From: Azolla caroliniana | Taxonomy: Eukaryota; Plantae; Polypodiophyta | Assembly: GCA_043228905.1 (NCBI GenBank) | Contig: JBHGNT010000007.1 | Coordinates: 7,936,001-8,000,000 of the forward strand | DNA length: 64,000 bases | Reading direction: 5' to 3' | In this document: positions 1 to 16,427 of the stretch, in pieces | Numbering within the stretch: the first letter of the stretch is position 1 | Layout: each line of letters opens with the position of its first letter | Position numbers and translations under genes: made by a program | Notes under the pieces: generated by a model | Database searches by the model: none | Seen by the model: only the letters and a program-made list of their open reading frames with translations | What the model was told of the DNA's origin: nothing

Positions 1-308
1 TCAAGGTTGTCTATTTGTTTTTGTTTGTGCACATGAATAGTACAGTACCTAGGATCAACCATGAAACTGGTGTTTGTATGGTTTAAGCATATATTTGAAA
101 GAAAAAACACCAATTAGCATAATTAAGTTTTAGGGGTATCCTGGTAACTCTTTTACAACCAAGGGATATTCTGGTAATCTTTACAAACCAAAGATTATCC
201 TGGTTAATCAATATAAAGCTGGGGGTATATTGAACTATTGTTTCCCAATATATAAATTTTTCATGTTCCCCAAGTATACTCTAATGCCAGACATATTGAT
301 TTGTTCAG

Positions 309-981
309 GATCTTGCAACAGCATTCATAAAAGTGCTTGGTAACAGCAAAGCTAGTAAGCAGGTGTACAATATATCTGGGGAAAAATATGTCACATTTGA
401 TGGCATTGCTAAAGCATGTGCTAAGGTACACTGGATGTCTTTTTCTTCAAAAAATGAAAGAGGATTTTCCAATTATTGTGGTAATGTGCTAGAAATACTT
501 TTCATTTTTTTTGTTGTTTCTCACTAGGCTGGTGGCTTTCCCGAACCTGAGCTGATACACTACAAACCCAAGGAGTTCGATTTCGGAAAGAGTAAATCCT
601 TCCCTTTAAGGGACCAGGTATGTCTTGATTTCTTGCTCAAATAGTCGCATGGCGTTTTGAATTTAACAATCTATCTATTCTTATACCATTGTTTTTTTAC
701 ATTCATCCTTTTTTCTTATATGTATAATCAATGTATTCTTGCATCATTTTTTTCACATGCTTTATTTTTCCTATGTCTTTGTTGTATTCTTGCAGCATTT
801 CTTCACGTCTATTGAGAAAGCTAAGACAGAGTTGGGATGGGAACCTAAATTTGGATTGGTGGAAGGGTTAACCGACTCGTATAATCTTGACTTTGGTCGA
901 GGAACATTTAGAAAAGCAGCTGATTTCACCGCTGATGACATTATATTGGAAAAGCTCGGAAAGGTAACTGTGGCTTTGTAA
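309..981 (+). CDS. CSP41b: Chloroplast stem-loop binding protein CSP41b (NAD-dependent epimerase/SDR fold), last three coding exons 309-425, 528-617, 796-981; gene starts upstream of the window
   Basis: GT-AG exons splice in frame to DLATAFIKVLGNSKASKQVYNISGEKYVTFDGIAKACAK/AGGFPEPELIHYKPKEFDFGKSKSFPLRDQ/HFFTSIEKAKTELGWEPKFGLVEGLTDSYNLDFGRGTFRKAADFTADDIILEKLGKVTVAL*, recognisable as the plant CSP41b C-terminus; nt 1-5 (TCAAG|GT) look like the end of the preceding exon (..HVK). Confidence 0.92.
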
Positions 982-1211
982 GAAGAGGGTCTTCACTTGG
1001 TTATTTCTTGCTCTAGCAAGTAGGCCATGGTTGATAAGGTGGAATTTCACATATGTTTATCTTATCATACACAACTACCTACCTCCATTGTGTTCATTGT
1101 ATTAGTTATAGTACTTCCCATATTGCGCTTGTACAAACACCGATGAAATAACAAACATGTTTCATCCTTACTTGATGTTGAGCCTTCATGGAAATGCTGC
1201 TTCTCAATGAT

Positions 1212-2386: not shown

Positions 2387-3081
2387 AGAGTAAGTATCTG
2401 GGACATTTGACTGTATACCCATTCAGCAAACAATTTAATGAACATATATTTAGCTTTAGGTTGCATAACCTCTTGATTGTAGATGGTTTACGGTTAGATC
2501 ATTGTCATATATAGGAGGATGGACACAGTACTTAAAAAGACATGTGTACCCCAAATGTTCAAGTCATGAAAATGACGAATGACAAATTATGAATACAGGT
2601 GGACTGCCAGTCTAGGGTTTTCCATAAATTGCACAATCTAAACACACGAAACAAACGCATCTCACGGAGACACTCATATGAAATAAAAATCCAGAAATCT
2701 CTCATTATTTTCAGCGACTTACTTTGTAAAAAGTCTGCAAATGAGAATTACTATATACATGCAAAATTGATTCACTATTATTCATGTTTTCAAGTTCTCA
2801 TAGCATACGGAATTCAAATTGACTCTAAACTCACTGTATTTCACACATAATACATTTTCAAAACCACTAGGCGCAGAGCTGTCGCATAATAAAAACAAAA
2901 ATCTGGCCATATATCGTCCTATCTCACAAGATAATTCTCGTTCTATCTCAAACCATAATAGTGGTAGCCGCTTGAAGTTACCACGGAAGCATGCAAACGT
3001 ATCTTTAACAGGCAGAAAAGGACAGATAGCATCCTTAATTAATCAAACTTAGAGAGAAAAGGACAGAAATTCCAAAAGCCC

Positions 3082-3177
3082 GTGTGCCCTCAGATCTCAT
3101 AGCTCTAATAAGCTTCATCGGTGGCGTAATGGCAAACTACCTCATTCTTCTCCATTCTCATGTGAGGGTGAAGGGAC

Positions 3178-3219
<42 letters not shown>

Positions 3220-3365
3220 CGCGGTGATGGAGTGATGTGAAAACGGATCTGTGCAGGAATGAGCAGTGTGTGAAAAGAGAAGGGAGAAGAATGAGATCTT
3301 GTTTACCGCCACACTTGGACCTTCCGATCATCCAGCTTCGTTATGTTTTCCATCATAGGGCACAC
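3082..3365 (-). ncRNA. Box C/D guide RNA (snoRNA/scaRNA-like, ~285 nt), predicted guide for Cm34 of elongator pre-tRNA-Met(CAU)
   Basis: 8-bp terminal stem GTGTGCCC/GGGCACAC (3358-3365 with 3082-3089); box C ATGATGG (3350-3356); box D CTGA (3090-3093); C'-like CGATGA (~3115-3120); long internal stem (3121-3153 with 3283-3312); the guide before box D is complementary to TCTCATAGCT and its D+5 position pairs with the C of the CAT anticodon. Confidence 0.8.
3178..3219. repeat. (GAT)14 microsatellite inside the loop of the C/D RNA
   Basis: Direct read. Confidence 0.95.
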
Positions 3366-3393: not shown

Positions 3394-3600
3394 ACCCTAA
3401 ACCCTAACTACAAGGTTCACTACGTAACACACAAAACACCAAAACCCTAAACAGGCAGAGATGCAAAGAAACCCATAGCCACAAATCTGATGCTAGACCT
3501 TTAAGATCGTATAAACCCTAACTACAAGGTTCACCATGGAATACCCAAAACCCAAACAGGCAGAGAGGCAAAGAAATCCATATCTACAAATCTGATTCTC
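3394..3600. promoter_or_regulatory. Telo-box-rich (AAACCCTA) duplicated segment upstream of the C/D RNA
   Basis: ACCCTAAACCCTAA at ~3394, further AAACCCTA motifs at ~3442, ~3513 and ~3730 (reverse); a ~90-bp unit ACCCTAACTACAAGGTTCAC...ACAAATCTGAT occurs twice. Telo-boxes are typical near plant snoRNA and translation-machinery genes. Confidence 0.45.
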
Positions 3601-4514
3601 AACCTTTTAAGATCACAAGTATATATACATATACATACATATATATATATACACATATTATAGATATGAACCAGAGGAGGCGATTAGCAAACAGAGGAGC
3701 GGACATGCAAGAAAGATCGACACGATTTCTAGGGTTTCTTTCCACAGCTGCTTCTACACACACGGATTGGATGCCTTTCACACTTTAGGAGGATCAGATC
3801 AGGCGGCCTCTGGGACACCCACCATCCATCCCGATTCGGCCCCATCCTCATCCCCTATAAACTGACTCCGCCACTGGACATCCATCTTATTGATTCTTAC
3901 CCTCGTCCGGCTTCATCTTCAAGTGTTTTCTTCAAACTCTAAAACCGGAATCGGCCACGTTTCGTAATAACAAAAAAAAACACTCGCATACTATAACATT
4001 TGTATTGGTGCGGATCATGTGATAGAAAAAAACATTATACGGTTTTCGTTGATAACTTCTCACTTCAGACCATTACCATTGATATGTGTCTCGTGAAAAC
4101 CGATATGGATGGGCTTCGGGTTGGTTCAAATTCGAACAATAGGTGGTCACCATCAAGATTCTATGTTCGTTATCTAGCCATTGTGGCTACTAGCTTAGTT
4201 TTCTTCCTTGATGCGCTTGTCTCCATCCAAAATTTGTAGGCTCTCATATAGCCACTTGGATTCAATTCATAGCCATATAAAAGGCTTCAAGAAACAACAT
4301 ATTTCGTTATTGTATGGTAAGCTTCTATATGTCTTCTTGTGTGCAATATCCGTTTCTTCCTGCCCTAACTTTTGGGCTTACTCAAGTCATGTTTTGTAGT
4401 ACAACATTATATAATAGCTATATATAAATCGTGATGGTTATTAACGTCTTTTGACTTAATATTAAAGTTGTTGTTGTTGTTGACGGCTTCTACCCCGACC
4501 AGTACGTCCATCAT

Positions 4515-8996: not shown

Positions 8997-10209
8997 TGCA
9001 AGCTCTCGCCATCGCCCGTTGGCCACAGTCGCAGACAACAGACGATCGTTTCCCTGTCCTCGCTGCTCTACTAACCGACATTTGAAGTTTCGGATTCGAG
9101 GTGAGGCCTTTATACAGAAACAAAAGTTTTTTGAACAGAAAACCATTATGATTAGGGTTTTCAACGGAAGTATTCGCTGTGAGGACTTTGAACACAAACC
9201 ATTAAATTAAGTTTTTTTTTTTTTTTTTCGGAACGGAAATTGTCCACGTAAGTATTTTCGGGTGAAGGACTTCTGTTTTGAATAGAATCTCCATGCTTTA
9301 GATTCTTAGGTCTCTGTAATGAACGTACAGAAATGCATACTGGATTCCTAAAATAGCAAATAAGAAAGAGAGTGTCTTATGCCTGTGTGCTTTTTCCTAT
9401 TACAGGCTGTGAAAATCGCAGAAAACATTGAGTCGAATCATTAAGGTAAAGAATTCTAGTGCTTTCTGTTTCCTCCGATTTCGGAGCTAGATCCTCGATC
9501 ATTGAATCATAAAAGGCCCATGAACCATTTCTACAACTTTGCGGGTGTCATCATGATTCCGCTCACAGGTTGTTGAACTTTAACGAATTGAAGCTGACAC
9601 TATCAAGTTCAAGAATCTGAATAGAAACTATCAAGGGCAAGATTCTGAGCAAAAACCATTAGCACGGGATCGTGGAGTCGTAATCATTTAGGTAAGATTT
9701 AAAGCAAATTTTGTTGATATATTTGTTTTGAGCATAAACGGATTTTAAGATTTCCAGTGAAAACTAGTAAAGGTTAAATTTTCAACAGAAACTATTTAGA
9801 TAAGATGTTGAGAGCTTAAGATAAGACTTTAAGCTGAAACTGTTGAGTAGTTTTTGAGCTGAAACTGGTCTTTTAGTTTCTAGCAAAAGACTCCTAAACT
9901 AAGGTTCTCAGCAGAAACTATTAATCCAATATTTAGCTGCAGAAAGTATTAACTGTTCACTTAGATCTATGAGATAGTTTCACATTTCATGACCTCATAG
10001 ATTTTTGGGTTACATATGCATCTTTGCTTAATGAACACTCAGAAGGGTGTGAAAAATCCTCAATCACAAACTAATTTACTTAGATACCTGTAATGGATCC
10101 ACAAACTTTATGTCGGTACACACTTGTACACATCTCTTTTCAACTTTCTGTGATGATTACACTTACAGGAGGTGAAAAATATCTGAAGGTTTTGAGGAGA
10201 AATTAGACC
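8960..10209 (+). other. Probable multi-exon 5' UTR of eIF3f (exons ~8960-9100, 9406-9445, 9569-9691, 10169-10209)
   Basis: CCCTAA plus (CT)n tract at the start; donors GTGAGG 9101, GTAAAG 9446, GTAAGA 9692; acceptors TTACAG 9405, TCACAG 9568, TTACAG 10168; the spliced leader contains no ATG. Confidence 0.55.
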
Positions 10210-12292
10210 ATGGCGATAGGGAGCTCTATCTTGCAGCTGGCGTCTGGTCCTACTGGAAGTTCGGCCAAGCTTCACCCTACTGTGCTTTTCAACATCTGTG
10301 ATTCTTACATCAGGCGAAATGATCAAACAGAGAGGGTTATTGGAACTTTGTTAGGTTCTGTGTCTTCTGATGGAGTTGTGGACATTCGCAACTCGTACGC
10401 TGTGCCTCACAATGAGTCTTCTGAACAGGTATTATCCATTGCAAAAGAAGAACTTTTTTTCTTGTTAATTTTTGTTCAAGTTATTTGGCATGGGGTTGTA
10501 TCTGAGCAGTCTTTTGGATGAAAGAGTGCATAGTGTATCACATATACGTTGTTTTTTGAACAGAAAGGTGTGTTCTGAGCATCTTGGTTGAATGTATGAA
10601 CTTGGTTGGGTATACAGAATTGAAGTGTGCACAGGCTAACCTGTGGTGATCTATCTTGATGTATTGGAGTACATCGCAATTGGCTATTGACCAATAGAAA
10701 TCATTTTGTGTAATGCCATGTCCCTACTTGCAATGAGCATAAAACATTGCAGATTATTTGTGTTTATTAGCAGTAAGGTTCAGGAAAACACTATAATGGG
10801 TACTGAATAGATATTATATTCTATGTATATTAAGATTAATGGCACTGGAAAGTTTGAGATTTATGTAGAACACTCAGATGATTCAATGATGTTTTGAGCA
10901 CGAGAACAGTTCTGTTATGAGATCTCCTTGGTTCTATTAGTCAAAGGTTTAGAATACAGAGGTATAGTGAACAGAAGGTTGTGTGGCAATCTTTTTGGTG
11001 GTGGTTGTTGAGAAGTCTTTGGGATTAAAGAGTAGTCTCGGAAACATTGAGAATTCAGGAGGGAGGGTGTTAGTCACTATAAAGACAATCTCAACGCTAA
11101 GTATTTGCAAGGGAAGTGAAAATTGAATGTCACACTGCAGTGATCCTTTGTGGGAAGGTTGTTTGATGATCTCCATACCTTTTTATTCTAATTGATGAGT
11201 CTCTGCTGCCATGAGGTGGGATAGGAAGTATAGAAGATTCAGGTGGGTGGACGGGAGTATATAACACCAATGGGTATTGACTTGATATGTACTTGTATAA
11301 TGACAGGTTGCAGTGGACATTGAATATCACAAATCAATGTTTGACCTGCATCAACGAGTGAACCCAAAGGAGGTGATAGTTGGCTGGTAAGTGCAGTTGT
11401 CTATGGATTACAAGTAAACATGGTGATATCTTACTTGGAATTTTTAACCATAGGTACTCTACAAGTGCAAGAGTGAGTGGTAGTGATGCATTGATTCAAG
11501 ATTTCTATGCCCGGGAGACCCAGAATCCTGTGTATTTGACTGTGGACACCACATTTCAAGACGAGGCTGCAAGTATTAAAGCATATGTTTCTACTATCCT
11601 TACACTCGGTGAACGCCAACTTGCTGCCCAATTTCATGAAGTTCAACTTGACCTTCGGATGGTAGAAGCGGAGAGAGTTGGATGTAATGATGAATAATAA
11701 TATATAATTAATACTTTAAGTTTTGGCCCTTCTTGTCTTGTATTTGTATTGTAACCCTATTTTTTGTTATACTTGTTGGGTGGCAGTTGATGTCTTGAAG
11801 AAAACAATTGTGGAAAAGCTTCCTGATGATTTAGAGGCATTAGAGATGACCATGGGAAGGTTGCATAGCATGGTTGAAACAGTATTTAAATACGTCGATG
11901 ATGTTGTGGTAAGGATTAATTTTCTTTATGGTGTAAAATGTGTTTTTTTTACATGGTAATTTATGAGATATGGTCATTTTAACAGGAGGGGCGGACTCCT
12001 CCAGACAATACTGTGGGAAGGTATCTCTCAGATACAATAGCTTCGATACCTAAGATTTCTCCAGAAGCATTTGATAAACTTTTCAATGACAGTATTCAGG
12101 TGACTAAACTCAAATCAAACCCTTTAGAAATTTGTCTCAAAATTGATTCTTTGTTCATCTTGAAATTTTTTGTTATTGACTTTGATTCCTTCTTTTATTC
12201 AGGATCTGCTTCTGGTGCTTTATCTGGCCAATTTAACCAGAACACAACTATCACTAGCGAAGAAGCTGAATTCGGCAGCTCAAGTCTTCTAA
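10210..12292 (+). CDS. eIF3f: Eukaryotic translation initiation factor 3 subunit F (MPN domain); exons 10210-10428, 11307-11386, 11454-11683, 11787-11908, 11986-12099, 12203-12292; ~284 aa
   Basis: All introns are GT-AG and phases are consistent; motifs HPTVLFNICDSYIRR, RVIGTLLG, NSYAVPHNES, VNPKEVIVGWYST, DLLLVLYLANLTRTQL are characteristic of plant eIF3f. Confidence 0.95.
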
Positions 12293-14117
12293 GGATGACT
12301 TGGAACCAACCACTTTTGTATGCTACATTTTGGATGTGTGCTCACTTGCAATGTTCTAAGCACTATCATCTATGCTCATTGTTTTAGGGGTTAAAAAAGG
12401 AGCTTAGAGTATATCCAGATAACATCATGAATCTGATCCATGCAGCAATGTTGATGTGGATTTCAAATACAGTTGAGGTTTGCAAATTTATAGTGCAAGA
12501 ACAATCTGTAATGCACACTTTTTATCACTTTTTGACGGCTTAGCTTTCTTTTTATACTTTCATGGTCTGAGATTTTTCAAGAAGATCTGTAATGTATTTC
12601 CGGGTTTGATTGCATTAGCTTGAATTTTGACCTAATCCTCATATATTATATACATAATGTATGACCTTGGAAGATAACTTTCTCTTTCACACTGGTCTTC
12701 ATTTCTATGTTATGGTGTAGAACTTGCAATTTGTGAAAATTATCACCTCCATGTCTACATGTCGTTCCAAATAAAAAATTATATATTTAAAAATGAATGA
12801 TTATTGTGTAAATGTATGTAGTTCAAAGTCTAGCAACTCCCCTTATTATCAATATGTTTTCTGGAAGAATGGTTGATATTTCTTATCTGATCTCAAGTTG
12901 TCGAAGTCTGTTTGAATCCAAGGCTTTTTTCCAACTCGAAATATGTCACTCATTATTTGCTGGAGTATCGTGTATCCCAGTGCTAGTTTCTCCCCTGATT
13001 ATATTTTCATCTTCATCATTGCATTCATTCCCTTTTTTAAATGGAACAATGAGAAAGGCTGTGCTTCGTCTTGTACAAACTGATACATCATGCGAATGAT
13101 TATAGCTATTTTTACTTCTACTGAACATGGTATTGCCAAATATATGTTCACTTGTGCTAATGTTGGTGTGGTTTTGTCTAAGAAACATTGTCTTATGTAA
13201 AGAATAAAATGTCTTTGAGAAACATATTTAGATATTGAAGGTGGTTCATCAATGCATGAAAACATGGGTGAGAATGCAAAAGAGTCCCACCTGTTAGATG
13301 CTAAAGCACGATGTGAAAGCATTGCCTCTACACCATATATCTCATTACTAACCATGTAGTTTAACATATTGCTTGTGGAGTCATGAACTTATTAAAATTG
13401 GCAAGTTTAACCATGTAAATGTTGGGGCATGTTTTTAATGCTTGTAATTTGCAATCTTCTCAAGTGTCAAAGTGAGCAATTGGCTTTAGGTTCATACTTT
13501 TCATGCACATTGGTTGTTTGCTTCAAATCATATGGTTTCACAAATTAAGGGTTAAAAGTGATAGCATTTAGTTAAGGCAATGCTAATAAGCCATTGAGAA
13601 GACCCATTGGTTATACTTATATGATGTAATCTTGATCTATAAACCTTCTTGACATTGGCATTTGTCTATCAATATGTTCTCTTTGAGAAAATAATACATT
13701 ATTCGTACTTGAGGGTGACTTGTCCTTGTTGAGAAAATTCAAACATCATGTTTTCTTAAGTGTTAAAAACTTGTAATTTGTTTGGTATACCCTCCAACAT
13801 TTTTGGCATTCGCTCGCAATGATGCTTTTAGAAGGAACTCTTAACATGAAGATGAGTGAAAAGATGCATGTACGAATACTAGGAAAAATGACTTGCCCCT
13901 GAGAGAAACCTCATGTACCTTGCAAAAAGTCACAATCAACATGGTCATAAACTTAATCAAAATCAATCATACAATTGTCAACATTTGTTTAGATTTGGTT
14001 ATTATTGCAGCAAAGTCCCAAAATTTATAAACATTATCCAAGTTACTACTTTCTCGAATGGAACATGTTTAGGTTGGATGTGTAACTGTAGGTAATATAG
14101 TTCAAAGGCATATTATT

Positions 14118-16427
14118 TGATGGCAACTGAAGGACCCTATGCCTTGGGTATAAGGTAAATTAGTCCTTTTATAAAGTGTGGAGGCAGACAACAGTAGTCA
14201 CAGAGAATTTGTTTGAAGGTTGTGCATAAGTTCACCTTCATCAAGTTCAAATATTTGAGGAAGAACGCTAGAGTTAGACCATCCATACCTGGGGAACTAG
14301 GTGTTGGGGAAACTTGTCCCTTCGTATGGGAAGAGCATAAGCCAGATCGGCTGAGAGACTGACCATCAGTCGGCCCGTTCGGATCTAGTTCCAGATACAT
14401 GCAATGTGAGCGGACTAGGAGTTGGCTGTCCGGTTGGGAACTAGATAGGAAGTTGAAATTAGAATGGTAGCCGGTCGATCGACCGAAGGCCAATCTTATG
14501 AGAGCTGGCCAGTAGCCGAATCGGACGAAAGTCGATTGGCCTGTAGCCAATCCGGATTGTGTGACCGATTCGGCCGAATCAGATTCATTTGGTTTGGGCT
14601 ACATTTGTAAATAGCCTATACTTGTGTATTAGTATAAATAAACTAGGGCTAACATATGTATTGTGTGGTCATGATTGTGTATTGAGAGTGATGCACAGAG
14701 AGTGAGAGCGTGGGAAACTGTCTGTAAGAAGAAAGACGAGCTCAAGGTTGTTGCCTAGAGTGTCTTGTATACCTCTTTACATAGTTATTTGGCTTGGAGT
14801 CTGTGGGCTCTTGTGGTTTTTCCCCATTCAGGGATTCCAGGTTAATATCTCGTGTCTGTGCATTTTTTGTTTTCAGTTATTGTCTTTCTCATTTGTACTT
14901 GATAACCGGTTGTGGCCGATCCCATATACTCATCAAACCGGTATTAGAGCAAGGTTCATAACCTCCAAGGTATAGAAATATAGATGAATCCCTCAAAGGG
15001 ATGTTCAAGCTAACTGGCACCAACTACTTAGTCTGGAAGTCGAAGATGAGAGACATGCTCGTGTGCAAAGACCTACGGCTGCCGGTGTAGTATGACAATG
15101 AAAAACCAGACAATATTGATGCATCAACATGGGAAGTCATGCATCTAAAGGAAACTGCATACATAAGGTGTTTTATAGACATGAGTCTGTACAACAACTT
15201 CAATGAAGAAACAAAAGCCGACGTCCTTTGGAAGAAGATCGGGTTCATTCAGAAAACAAGAACGCCGTAAACAAAGTCTCTGTCTTCAAGAAGATAGTGA
15301 GATCGAGATATCATGATGGCTCAAGCATGGTTGAGCACATGAATGCCTTCTAAGGATTAATCAATCAGACCACCTCTCTAGAAGTACCTCTGGCCGACGA
15401 GGTACTGGCATTACTGCTGTTGGGATCCCTTCCAGACAACTGGGAGATGCTCATGGTGACCTTGGGTTATGCAAGACTGCAAGGGAAGCATTTGTCCCTG
15501 GAGATGGTGAAGGCGAACTTGCTGAATGAAGAAGCTCACCGGAAGGGCAGAGAGTCCACCTCTGATCAGAAGGCCTTAGTCATAGAAGGTGACTCCAACA
15601 GAGGAAGGGGAAGGCAGATGAGTCCGCATAATAGGGGTAGGTCTAGACCGAGGTTGAAGTCGAAGGGAAAGCTCACGTGCTTCTATTGTGGGAGGCCGGG
15701 ACACTTCCAGAAGAATTGTTGGCATTACTGGAAGGACAAAGGGGGAGCCGATGGTATCGAACCGAAGAAGATTTCGGACAACAAGACCACCTCATCCATC
15801 GCCGCGAGTGAGGAGCTACTGTTCATCAGTGAACATAATGAAATAAACCTCATTGATGATGAATCATCATGCATGGTCGATTTCGGTCCGCCGTTTCACC
15901 TGACCCCCAAGAGAGATTGCTTTTCATCCTACACGGTCAGAGATTACGACTACATGAAGATGGGAAACGACGGCGCATGCAAGATTGTCGGGAATCGGAA
16001 ATGTATGTTTATTGACCTCAACAGGCTATAGAATGATGGTGAAAGATGCGCAACATGTTCGAGATATCAAATTGAATCTGATATCGGCCGGACGGCTCGA
16101 TGACGAAGGTTACAACGATAGCTTCTGAAATGGCACATGGAGATTCTGCAAAGGAAGCTTGATAGTGGCTCGAGCTTACAAGCAATATACATTATATGTG
16201 ATGCATGCATGAATGTGTTGGAACGAGGCAAATGTGACCGTAGCCGACACAACCAGCGAGCTTTGGCAGAAGAGGATGTGCCACATGAGACAAAAGGGTA
16301 TGTTGATGCTAGCCGGAAAAGAATTCCTACCGGAGGTGAAGAATGTGCATCTAGACAAATGTGCGAACTGCTTGGTCGGCAAGCAGAACATGGTTGCCTT
16401 TCGCCCTAGGCCTCCAACGAGGAGGAA
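14118..16427 (+). mobile_element. Degenerate Copia element, 5' part: LTR ~14118-14935, PBS 14939-14950, gag/zinc knuckle/protease/GAG-pre-integrase, interrupted at 16428
   Basis: TGATG...CATCA termini; degenerate iMet PBS CGGTATTAGAGC; GMFKLTG.NY.VWKSKMRDML, CFYCGRPGHFQKNC, LWQKRMCHM motifs with stops and frameshifts. Confidence 0.8.

What the first reader, a model, noticed from the sequence alone, without database searches (positions are those of the whole stretch)
3082..3365. Hidden ~285-nt box C/D RNA predicted to 2'-O-methylate wobble C34 of intron-containing pre-tRNA-Met
Seen: on the minus strand GTGTGCCC-T-ATGATGG (box C) ... CGATGA (C'-like) ... AGAGCTATGAGAT-CTGA (box D)-GGGCACAC, closed by an 8-bp terminal stem. 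The guide is complementary to 5'-TCT[C]ATAGCT(CT)-3', and the D+5 rule selects the bracketed C. Established: plant elongator tRNA-Met genes read ..GTCTCATA followed by an intron starting GCT.., so this C is anticodon C34 and the pairing extends into the intron. In humans SNORD97 and SCARNA97 guide Cm34 of elongator tRNA-Met; I recall an angiosperm counterpart being proposed but cannot verify that here. Inference: this is an intron-dependent, tRNA-targeting guide RNA in a fern-like genome that would act before tRNA splicing, and it is invisible to the ORF track.
Basis: partly seen in the sequence, partly recalled or inferred. Interest (0 to 1): 0.85.

Follow-up and report, generated by a model that had tools for sequence, protein, structure and literature searches.

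The report
Plant SNORD97-like guide for pre-tRNA-Met
This is a real, transcribed plant small guide RNA whose business end matches the unspliced methionine tRNA, so it likely marks that tRNA's first anticodon base with a methyl group before the intron is removed, a job already shown in humans and already predicted, but not tested, for plants.

Summary
Observation confirmed: box C, box D, an 8-bp end stem and the guide lie where stated, single-copy. The guide puts D+5 on C34 and pairs 9-13 Watson-Crick bases with 23 of 23 host elongator tRNA-Met genes, all intron-containing, against 7 with the spliced tRNA and at most 7 with rRNA or snRNAs. In two closely matching RNA runs, contigs cover only the RNA body. 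A metagenome scan gave a family with the same ends, a covarying hairpin and a low-complexity loop. The Arabidopsis counterpart, At1gCDbox48.1, is a fibrillarin-bound RNA listed without a target (PMC8583080).

It is not a new kind. Vitali and Kiss 2019 named plant SNORD97 candidates, and Zhang et al. 2023 (PMC10576143) already state that plant and archaeal tRNA-Met introns join the duplex. Methylation, intron dependence and location remain untested in plants; a 2026 review calls the plant mechanism unknown. The scan noted similar tRNA-Met guides before, in a protist and an arthropod. The fern label was not tested. Verdict: a new member of a known kind that names a direct knockout target.

The parts
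3082..3365 (-). Box C/D RNA gene including the full 8-bp terminal stem; single copy in G000
   Evidence: RNA contigs cover 3089-3352
3358..3365 (-). 5' arm of terminal stem; its inner CCC pairs are kept across the family
   Evidence: helix 1 is 97% paired in 19 sequences
3350..3356 (-). Box C, AUGAUGG (6 of 7 to RUGAUGA)
   Evidence: UGAUG invariant in alignment A1 and not part of the search pattern
3277..3312 (-). 5' arm of a long internal hairpin (31 bp in the centroid fold, predicted)
   Evidence: z -2.55, 0 of 200 shuffles as stable
3160..3276 (-). Large G-poor, pyrimidine-rich loop with an (AUC)n run; resembles the pyrimidine-rich region of SCARNA97
   Evidence: 3275-3169 is 68% C+U with 7 G in 107 nt; fold; low-complexity loops in family members
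3126..3159 (-). 3' arm of the internal hairpin (predicted)
3115..3120 (-). C'-like word CGAUGA; no credible D' box or D' guide found
   Evidence: GAUGA was part of the search pattern, so its conservation there is by construction
3094..3106 (-). D-box guide; D+2 to D+8 pair with tRNA-Met 31-37, D+9 to D+12/13 with the first intron bases; D+5 (3098) faces C34
3090..3093 (-). Box D, CUGA
3082..3089 (-). 3' arm of terminal stem; contigs of three runs end at 3089 with library adapter
3399..3737 (.). Four telo-box words (at 3737, 3520, 3449, 3406) upstream of the RNA; probable promoter or host-intron region (inferred)
   Evidence: 4 of the 16 telo-box words in the window lie here
3896..3901 (-). Candidate 5' splice site (G|GTAAG) of a possible non-coding host transcript; not shown to be used
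   Evidence: no joint at this site among those shown
2796..2804 (-). Second guide-like word without a valid box D; probably a decayed tandem copy

Best explanation
This is a transcribed plant box C/D RNA of the SNORD97/SCARNA97 kind that likely guides fibrillarin to 2'-O-methylate the wobble C34 of elongator tRNA-Met(CAU) while the tRNA still carries its intron. Shown here: the boxes, the stem, the single gene copy, RNA contigs over the body, the register on C34 and the extra pairs with the intron. Inferred from C/D RNP biology: the C and D boxes form a kink-turn that loads the core proteins, the guide pairs with tRNA positions 30-37 plus the first 3-5 intron bases, and fibrillarin methylates the base opposite D+5; splicing then removes part of the site and releases the tRNA. 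Inferred by analogy only: the pyrimidine-rich loop on the long hairpin sends the RNA to Cajal bodies, and Cm34 protects the anticodon loop from cleavage.
For: Target: 23 of 23 tRNA-Met genes found with an exon-only pattern carry a 10-11 nt intron; duplex 9-13 Watson-Crick pairs (10-15 with G-U), -16.2 to -23.3 kcal/mol, against 7 pairs and -10.5 to -10.6 in 22 of the 23 spliced forms, -14.4 in one decayed copy. The best in-register match in the 9,074-nt rDNA unit is 7 pairs and in 13 copies of U1, U2, U4, U5, U6 at most 6. Expression: runs X1 and X2 (99%+ alike) give spliced contigs on the neighbouring genes and, between 1303 and 8680, cover only the bin holding this RNA; contigs stop at 3089 with adapter in X1, X2 and X5, two studies. 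Conservation: of 31 distinct metagenome hits ending TCTGAGGG, 27 have an unsearched stem+box C upstream, against 0 of 34 other hits; internal hairpin 90% paired, 14 of 30 pairs with changes on both sides. Arabidopsis At1gCDbox48.1 (266 nt) has the same start motif and the same last guide, box D and stem letters, and came down with fibrillarin FIB2 at 10,348-13,102 reads. GCT at the intron start is conserved in angiosperms. Human SNORD97/SCARNA97 knockouts lose Cm34.
Against: No methylation data for this organism; a 2026 review says the plant mechanism is unknown. C/D RNPs use at most about 10 bp during catalysis, so only 2-3 intron pairs may matter and the spliced tRNA still offers 7 pairs plus a G-U. 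Trm7/Trm734 makes Nm34 without a guide in eukaryotes. The RNA evidence is contigs only: no strand, level or proven ends, and adapter ends also occur at internal places (3122, 3241, 3307). The metagenome and paper searches asked for the intron-type guide letters, so their conservation there is by construction. Alignment A1 is dominated by related tandem copies and the structure was derived from it. Box C ends in G. Covariation between guide and intron across plants was not tested.
Confidence: 0.82

Rival explanations
1. It guides Cm34, but the intron pairs are only auxiliary: the spliced tRNA is methylated as well, as for the intron-less human tRNA.
For: The spliced tRNA keeps 7 Watson-Crick pairs plus a G-U from D+1 to D+8. 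The catalytic channel holds about 10 bp. Vitali and Kiss aligned plant candidates to spliced tRNA.
Against: The duplex with spliced tRNA is about 6-13 kcal/mol weaker in 22 of 23 genes and no better than chance matches in rRNA. The guide mismatches A38, which a guide for the spliced form should read.
Confidence: 0.09
2. The RNA binds pre-tRNA-Met as a chaperone or splicing timer, and any Cm34 is made by the stand-alone Trm7/Trm734 enzyme.
For: Trm7/Trm734 makes Nm34 in eukaryotes. The pairing covers the 5' splice junction. The long hairpin and loop exceed what methylation needs.
Against: The exact D+5 register on C34 is only needed for methylation. The human homologues are the sole source of Cm34 on this tRNA. 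The Arabidopsis RNA is fibrillarin-bound.
Confidence: 0.06
3. The tRNA match is accidental: the RNA has another target or the locus is a chance arrangement next to a microsatellite.
For: The 14-mer guide+D word occurs 57 times in the genome. No Rfam family matches, SNORD97 included. mRNAs, U11/U12 and other tRNAs were not scanned.
Against: 1 of 368 CTGA sites reaches 5 or more pairs. The other 14-mer hits examined are repeats without box C and stem. The same architecture recurs in other plants' DNA and in an expressed Arabidopsis RNA.
Confidence: 0.03

Closest known systems
Arabidopsis At1gCDbox48.1, chr1 28889322-28889587 (Azevedo-Favory et al. 2021, PMC8583080; seen: passages, Table 2 passage, supplement part 14 of 19)
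   Same: 266 nt, same GCCC-N-AUGAUG start, long body, same final guide, box D and GGGC letters; co-purifies with fibrillarin FIB2. Very likely the orthologue (compared by eye, not aligned).
   Different: Listed there with no known name and no target. It is followed by two similar long RNAs with other guide letters, whereas the window's RNA is a single intact copy.
Plant D97 guide-tRNA duplex in Zhang et al. 2023 PNAS (PMC10576143; seen: passages; SI Fig. S13 not seen)
   Same: States that eMet tRNAs of A. thaliana and archaea have introns that take part in the extended duplex, that splicing likely follows methylation, and reports two covarying pairs.
   Different: One plant, by alignment, in the passages read. 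This locus adds another plant lineage, genome-wide target counts, RNA contigs and the family architecture.
Human SNORD97 and SCARNA97/SNORD133 (Vitali and Kiss 2019, PMC6601510; seen: text parts 1-2 of 4, passages, supplement text; Fig. S3 alignment is a picture and was not seen)
   Same: D-box guide on C34 of elongator tRNA-Met; long RNA with a pyrimidine-rich interior (SCARNA97 216 nt, 93-nt tract needed for Cajal bodies); candidates named in Arabidopsis and rape.
   Different: The human tRNA has no intron, so the guide reads on into A38 and beyond. Humans have two intronic genes in protein-coding hosts. No Rfam SNORD97 match to this locus.
Haloarchaeal sR-tMet and the archaeal tRNA-Trp intron guide sR50 (seen: review passages PMC4033218, PMC7994747; Joardar 2011 title only, paper not held)
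   Same: Box C/D RNA guiding Cm34 on a precursor tRNA.
   Different: Archaeal RNPs; sR50 is the tRNA's own intron. The plant RNA is a separate long gene.

Membership tests
Box C/D methylation guide RNA | Terminal box C and box D closed by a stem | tested here: met
   AUGAUGG (6 of 7) and CUGA with an 8-bp stem; kept in the family
Box C/D methylation guide RNA | Antisense element of about 10 nt or more before D or D', target at +5 | tested here: met
   9-13 Watson-Crick pairs with 23 of 23 pre-tRNA-Met, D+5 on C34
Box C/D methylation guide RNA | Internal C'/D' pair with a second guide | tested here: inconclusive
   C'-like word present; none of 10 D'-like words gave a convincing guide
Box C/D methylation guide RNA | Accumulates as a discrete stable RNA | tested here: inconclusive
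   Contigs of RNA runs cover only the body and stop at 3089 in three runs; contigs cannot prove ends, strand or level
Box C/D methylation guide RNA | Binds fibrillarin and directs 2'-O-methylation | not testable with these tools
   The Arabidopsis counterpart co-purifies with FIB2; no methylation data
SNORD97/SCARNA97 (tRNA-Met Cm34 guides) | D-box guide complementary to the eMet anticodon loop, selecting C34 | tested here: met
   tRNA sequences match the plant rows of Fig. S4
SNORD97/SCARNA97 (tRNA-Met Cm34 guides) | Scores against the Rfam SNORD97 model | tested here: not met
   No SNORD97 hit at gathering score or at E up to 10; it is a functional counterpart, not an Rfam-family member by sequence
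SNORD97/SCARNA97 (tRNA-Met Cm34 guides) | Pyrimidine-rich internal region | tested here: met
   68% C+U over 107 nt; middle third 48-83% in 19 family members
Box C/D scaRNA | Cajal-body location through an internal signal | not testable with these tools
   Only a resemblance to the SCARNA97 signal
rRNA- or snRNA-targeting plant snoRNA | 10 or more pairs with rRNA or a spliceosomal snRNA in D+5 register | tested here: not met
   At most 7 Watson-Crick pairs with the rDNA unit, 6 with U1, U2, U4, U5, U6; minor snRNAs not scanned

The most novel reading that the evidence does not exclude
In land plants Cm34 of elongator tRNA-Met is strictly intron-dependent: the conserved GCT at the intron start is this RNA's landing site, which is why plants kept the tRNA-Met intron. 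Plants may also run two forms of the guide, a long pyrimidine-loop form (this one, Cajal-body type) and a shorter form in the last intron of ribosomal protein L38 genes, echoing the vertebrate SCARNA97/SNORD97 pair.
Probability: 0.5. Interest if true: 0.6.

Novelty: new member of a known kind. Interest (0 to 1): 0.38.

Why it matters
Plants keep introns in only two tRNA families, and why tRNA-Met keeps one is called unknown in a 2026 review. This locus and its Arabidopsis counterpart name the molecule to delete. A loss of Cm34 in that mutant, or on an intron-less tRNA, would show RNA-guided tRNA methylation in plants and give the intron a job. The idea is already in print from alignments, so the value lies in a concrete test and a wider family, not in a new concept.

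Tried and rejected
Rfam: no match at gathering score in the window, only chance hits at E up to 10 around the locus, and none to the family in 10 related loci. A loose 11-mer search for tRNA-Met: none of the first 30 loci was a tRNA-Met gene; later hits led to arrays. Paralogues in G000: none by DNA search; the pattern ending in box D plus GGG gave 2 hits, one this locus and one without guide or box C. Recalled names snoR145 and snoR106 rejected: the first is an H/ACA RNA, the second has a different 3' end. Second guide at a D' box, such as the human Gm22 site: not found; two 7-pair matches to tRNA-Met are short and one is altered in the close relative L170. The look-up of sequencing runs listed no holder on record as RNA; the RNA nature of X1, X2 and X6 rests on GT..AG joints. 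No host-transcript splice joint was seen near the locus; uncovered stretches prove nothing. Arabidopsis intron sequences for a covariation test were not found (logos are pictures). The Wu 2021 supplement was cut before its snoRNA table. Joardar 2011 is not held. The organisms behind the metagenome loci and the finer lineage of G000 were not determined; an Atlas look-up of a neighbouring exon gave only 'eukaryote'. Supplements not seen that bear on novelty: Vitali and Kiss Fig. S3C and Zhang et al. Fig. S13, which probably show the Arabidopsis RNA.

Full report
Observation. It is the only C/D pair with a stem of 6 bp or more in the window; one with 8 bp or more appeared in 2 of 60 shuffled windows. 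The DNA search of the own genome found one copy. Rfam has no family for it. The predicted fold is a terminal C/D core, a 31-bp internal hairpin and a 117-nt G-poor loop, z -2.55.

Target in the host genome. A pattern from the tRNA-Met 5' exon alone, up to 1 mismatch, found 23 genes. All 23 have a 10-11 nt intron after position 37, and 22 start GCT. After splicing in silico, 21 of 23 are called tRNA-Met by ARAGORN. With D+5 fixed on C34 the guide makes 9-13 Watson-Crick pairs with the precursors (-16.2 to -23.3 kcal/mol). It makes 7 with the spliced forms (-10.5 to -10.6 in 22 of 23, -14.4 in one decayed copy). The best in-register match is 7 pairs in the 9,074-nt rDNA unit and 6 in 13 copies of U1, U2, U4, U5 and U6. 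mRNAs, minor snRNAs and other tRNAs were not scanned. Of 368 CTGA sites in the window, one makes 5 or more pairs in this register: this one, with 12. The G at D+12 can read both intron classes of this genome, GCTC and GCTT, the second by a G-U pair. Against uniqueness, the 14-mer guide+D word has 57 genome hits, but 29 of the 30 examined are two repeat families without box C and stem.

Expression. No run was on record as RNA; 7 of the 8 listed runs were laid. X1 and X2, 99% or more alike to the window, give contigs spliced at GT..AG on the neighbouring genes. Between 1303 and 8680 they cover only the bin with this RNA; in X1 the pieces run from 3089 to 3352. Contigs end at 3089, one base after box D, with library adapter in X1, X2 and X5 (two studies). 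Adapter ends also occur inside the RNA, and contigs cannot give strand, ends or level, so this is a hint of a discrete RNA, not proof. In X5 one contig is identical over 3089-3118, while another spanning 3055-3118 has 5 differences. X7 is probably DNA.

Family. One metagenome scan with C'-word, guide and box D gave 91 loci; 49 end in TCTGAGGG. After removing duplicates and hits with under 300 bases upstream, 31 of that class and 34 others remained. An unsearched stem+box C lies upstream in 27 of the 31 (23 of the long type, 192-280 nt; 4 of a shorter type) and in 0 of the 34. For 19 long members the internal hairpin is 90% paired, with 14 of 30 pairs changed on both sides, against 38-42% paired when slid. 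Many rows are related tandem copies and the structure came from this alignment, so this overstates independence. Three of 10 loci scanned lie next to plant snoR118. The short type sits in tandem in an intron behind a ribosomal protein L38 exon. The guide letters were in the pattern, so their conservation here is by construction.

What is known. Vitali and Kiss showed by knockout that human SNORD97 and SCARNA97 make Cm34 of elongator tRNA-Met, that SCARNA97 needs a pyrimidine-rich tract to reach Cajal bodies, and named candidates in Arabidopsis and rape; their tRNA alignment uses spliced plant tRNA. Zhang et al. 2023 state that plant and archaeal eMet introns take part in the duplex and that splicing likely follows methylation. 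Azevedo-Favory et al. list At1gCDbox48.1, 266 nt, fibrillarin-bound, with no name or target; its ends and guide match this RNA. GCT is conserved at the start of angiosperm eMet introns. A 2026 review says it is unknown whether the human mechanism operates in plants. Nine answered literature searches and one sequence-word search showed no experimental test in plants among the papers I read, but most subscription papers are not held. Other papers were read as passages only and added nothing.

Mechanism. Shown: boxes, stem, register, precursor preference, RNA contigs, family. Inferred from established C/D biology: kink-turn assembly, pairing with the unspliced tRNA, methylation opposite D+5, then splicing. 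Inferred by analogy only: Cajal-body targeting by the loop and protection of the anticodon loop. Open points: the catalytic channel takes about 10 bp, so the intron may add only 2-3 working pairs; Trm7/Trm734 is an alternative source of Nm34. The transcription unit is unresolved: four telo-box words and one candidate 5' splice site lie upstream, with no splice joint seen.

Verdict. Real and correctly read, a new member of a known kind. It works like SNORD97/SCARNA97 but does not score against the Rfam model. Interest 0.38: the concept is published, but the finding names the gene to delete for an open question.

Noticed in passing
G000 C4:5.833-5.837 Mb, C4:6.035-6.090 Mb, C8:16.53-16.60 Mb, C15:19.317-19.337 Mb, C22:12.085-12.087 Mb (loci L032-L037, L050-L061): Tandem arrays of intron-containing elongator tRNA-Met copies, many decayed; 69 distinct tRNA-Met-like contexts in the loci held, 56 with introns starting GCT (partly selected by that word).
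   Followed up: partly
window 2780-3010, minus strand; L170:658-835: A second guide-like word at 2804-2796 lines up with a unit in relative L170 that still has a box C and a shifted box D: probably a decayed tandem copy. 2864-2935 is also matched by contigs of runs X3 and X5.
   Followed up: partly
L112, L141, L173, L197: A shorter (about 150-160 nt) tandem form of the same guide RNA with a box C variant, in an intron behind a ribosomal protein L38 exon in L173; a possible second plant class.
   Followed up: partly
L108, L109, L125, L169: Arrays of several long copies, up to three in one 2.4-kb locus, next to snoR118 in three loci, each copy with a different microsatellite in the loop.
   Followed up: partly
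Arabidopsis At1gCDbox49.1 and 50.1 (PMC8583080 supplement): Two neighbours of At1gCDbox48.1 share the long microsatellite-loop build but have other guide letters and far fewer reads (134-284); decayed or re-targeted duplicates.
   Followed up: no
G000 C15:5.187-5.213 Mb, C15:10.66-10.69 Mb, C128: U1 and U2 snRNA genes alternate on opposite strands in tandem units of about 3.3 kb.
   Followed up: no
window 307-985 (+) and 9000-12500 (+): Spliced protein-coding neighbours: a JAB/MPN-domain gene, eIF3f-like by recall, and the 3' end of a gene recalled as CSP41b-like (no Pfam hit on two short exons).
   Followed up: partly
window 15354-16028 (+): Copia-type retrotransposon gag remnant with a zinc knuckle.
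   Followed up: no
L062-L091: Two dispersed repeat families carry the 14-mer guide+box D word by coincidence, without box C or stem.
   Followed up: yes
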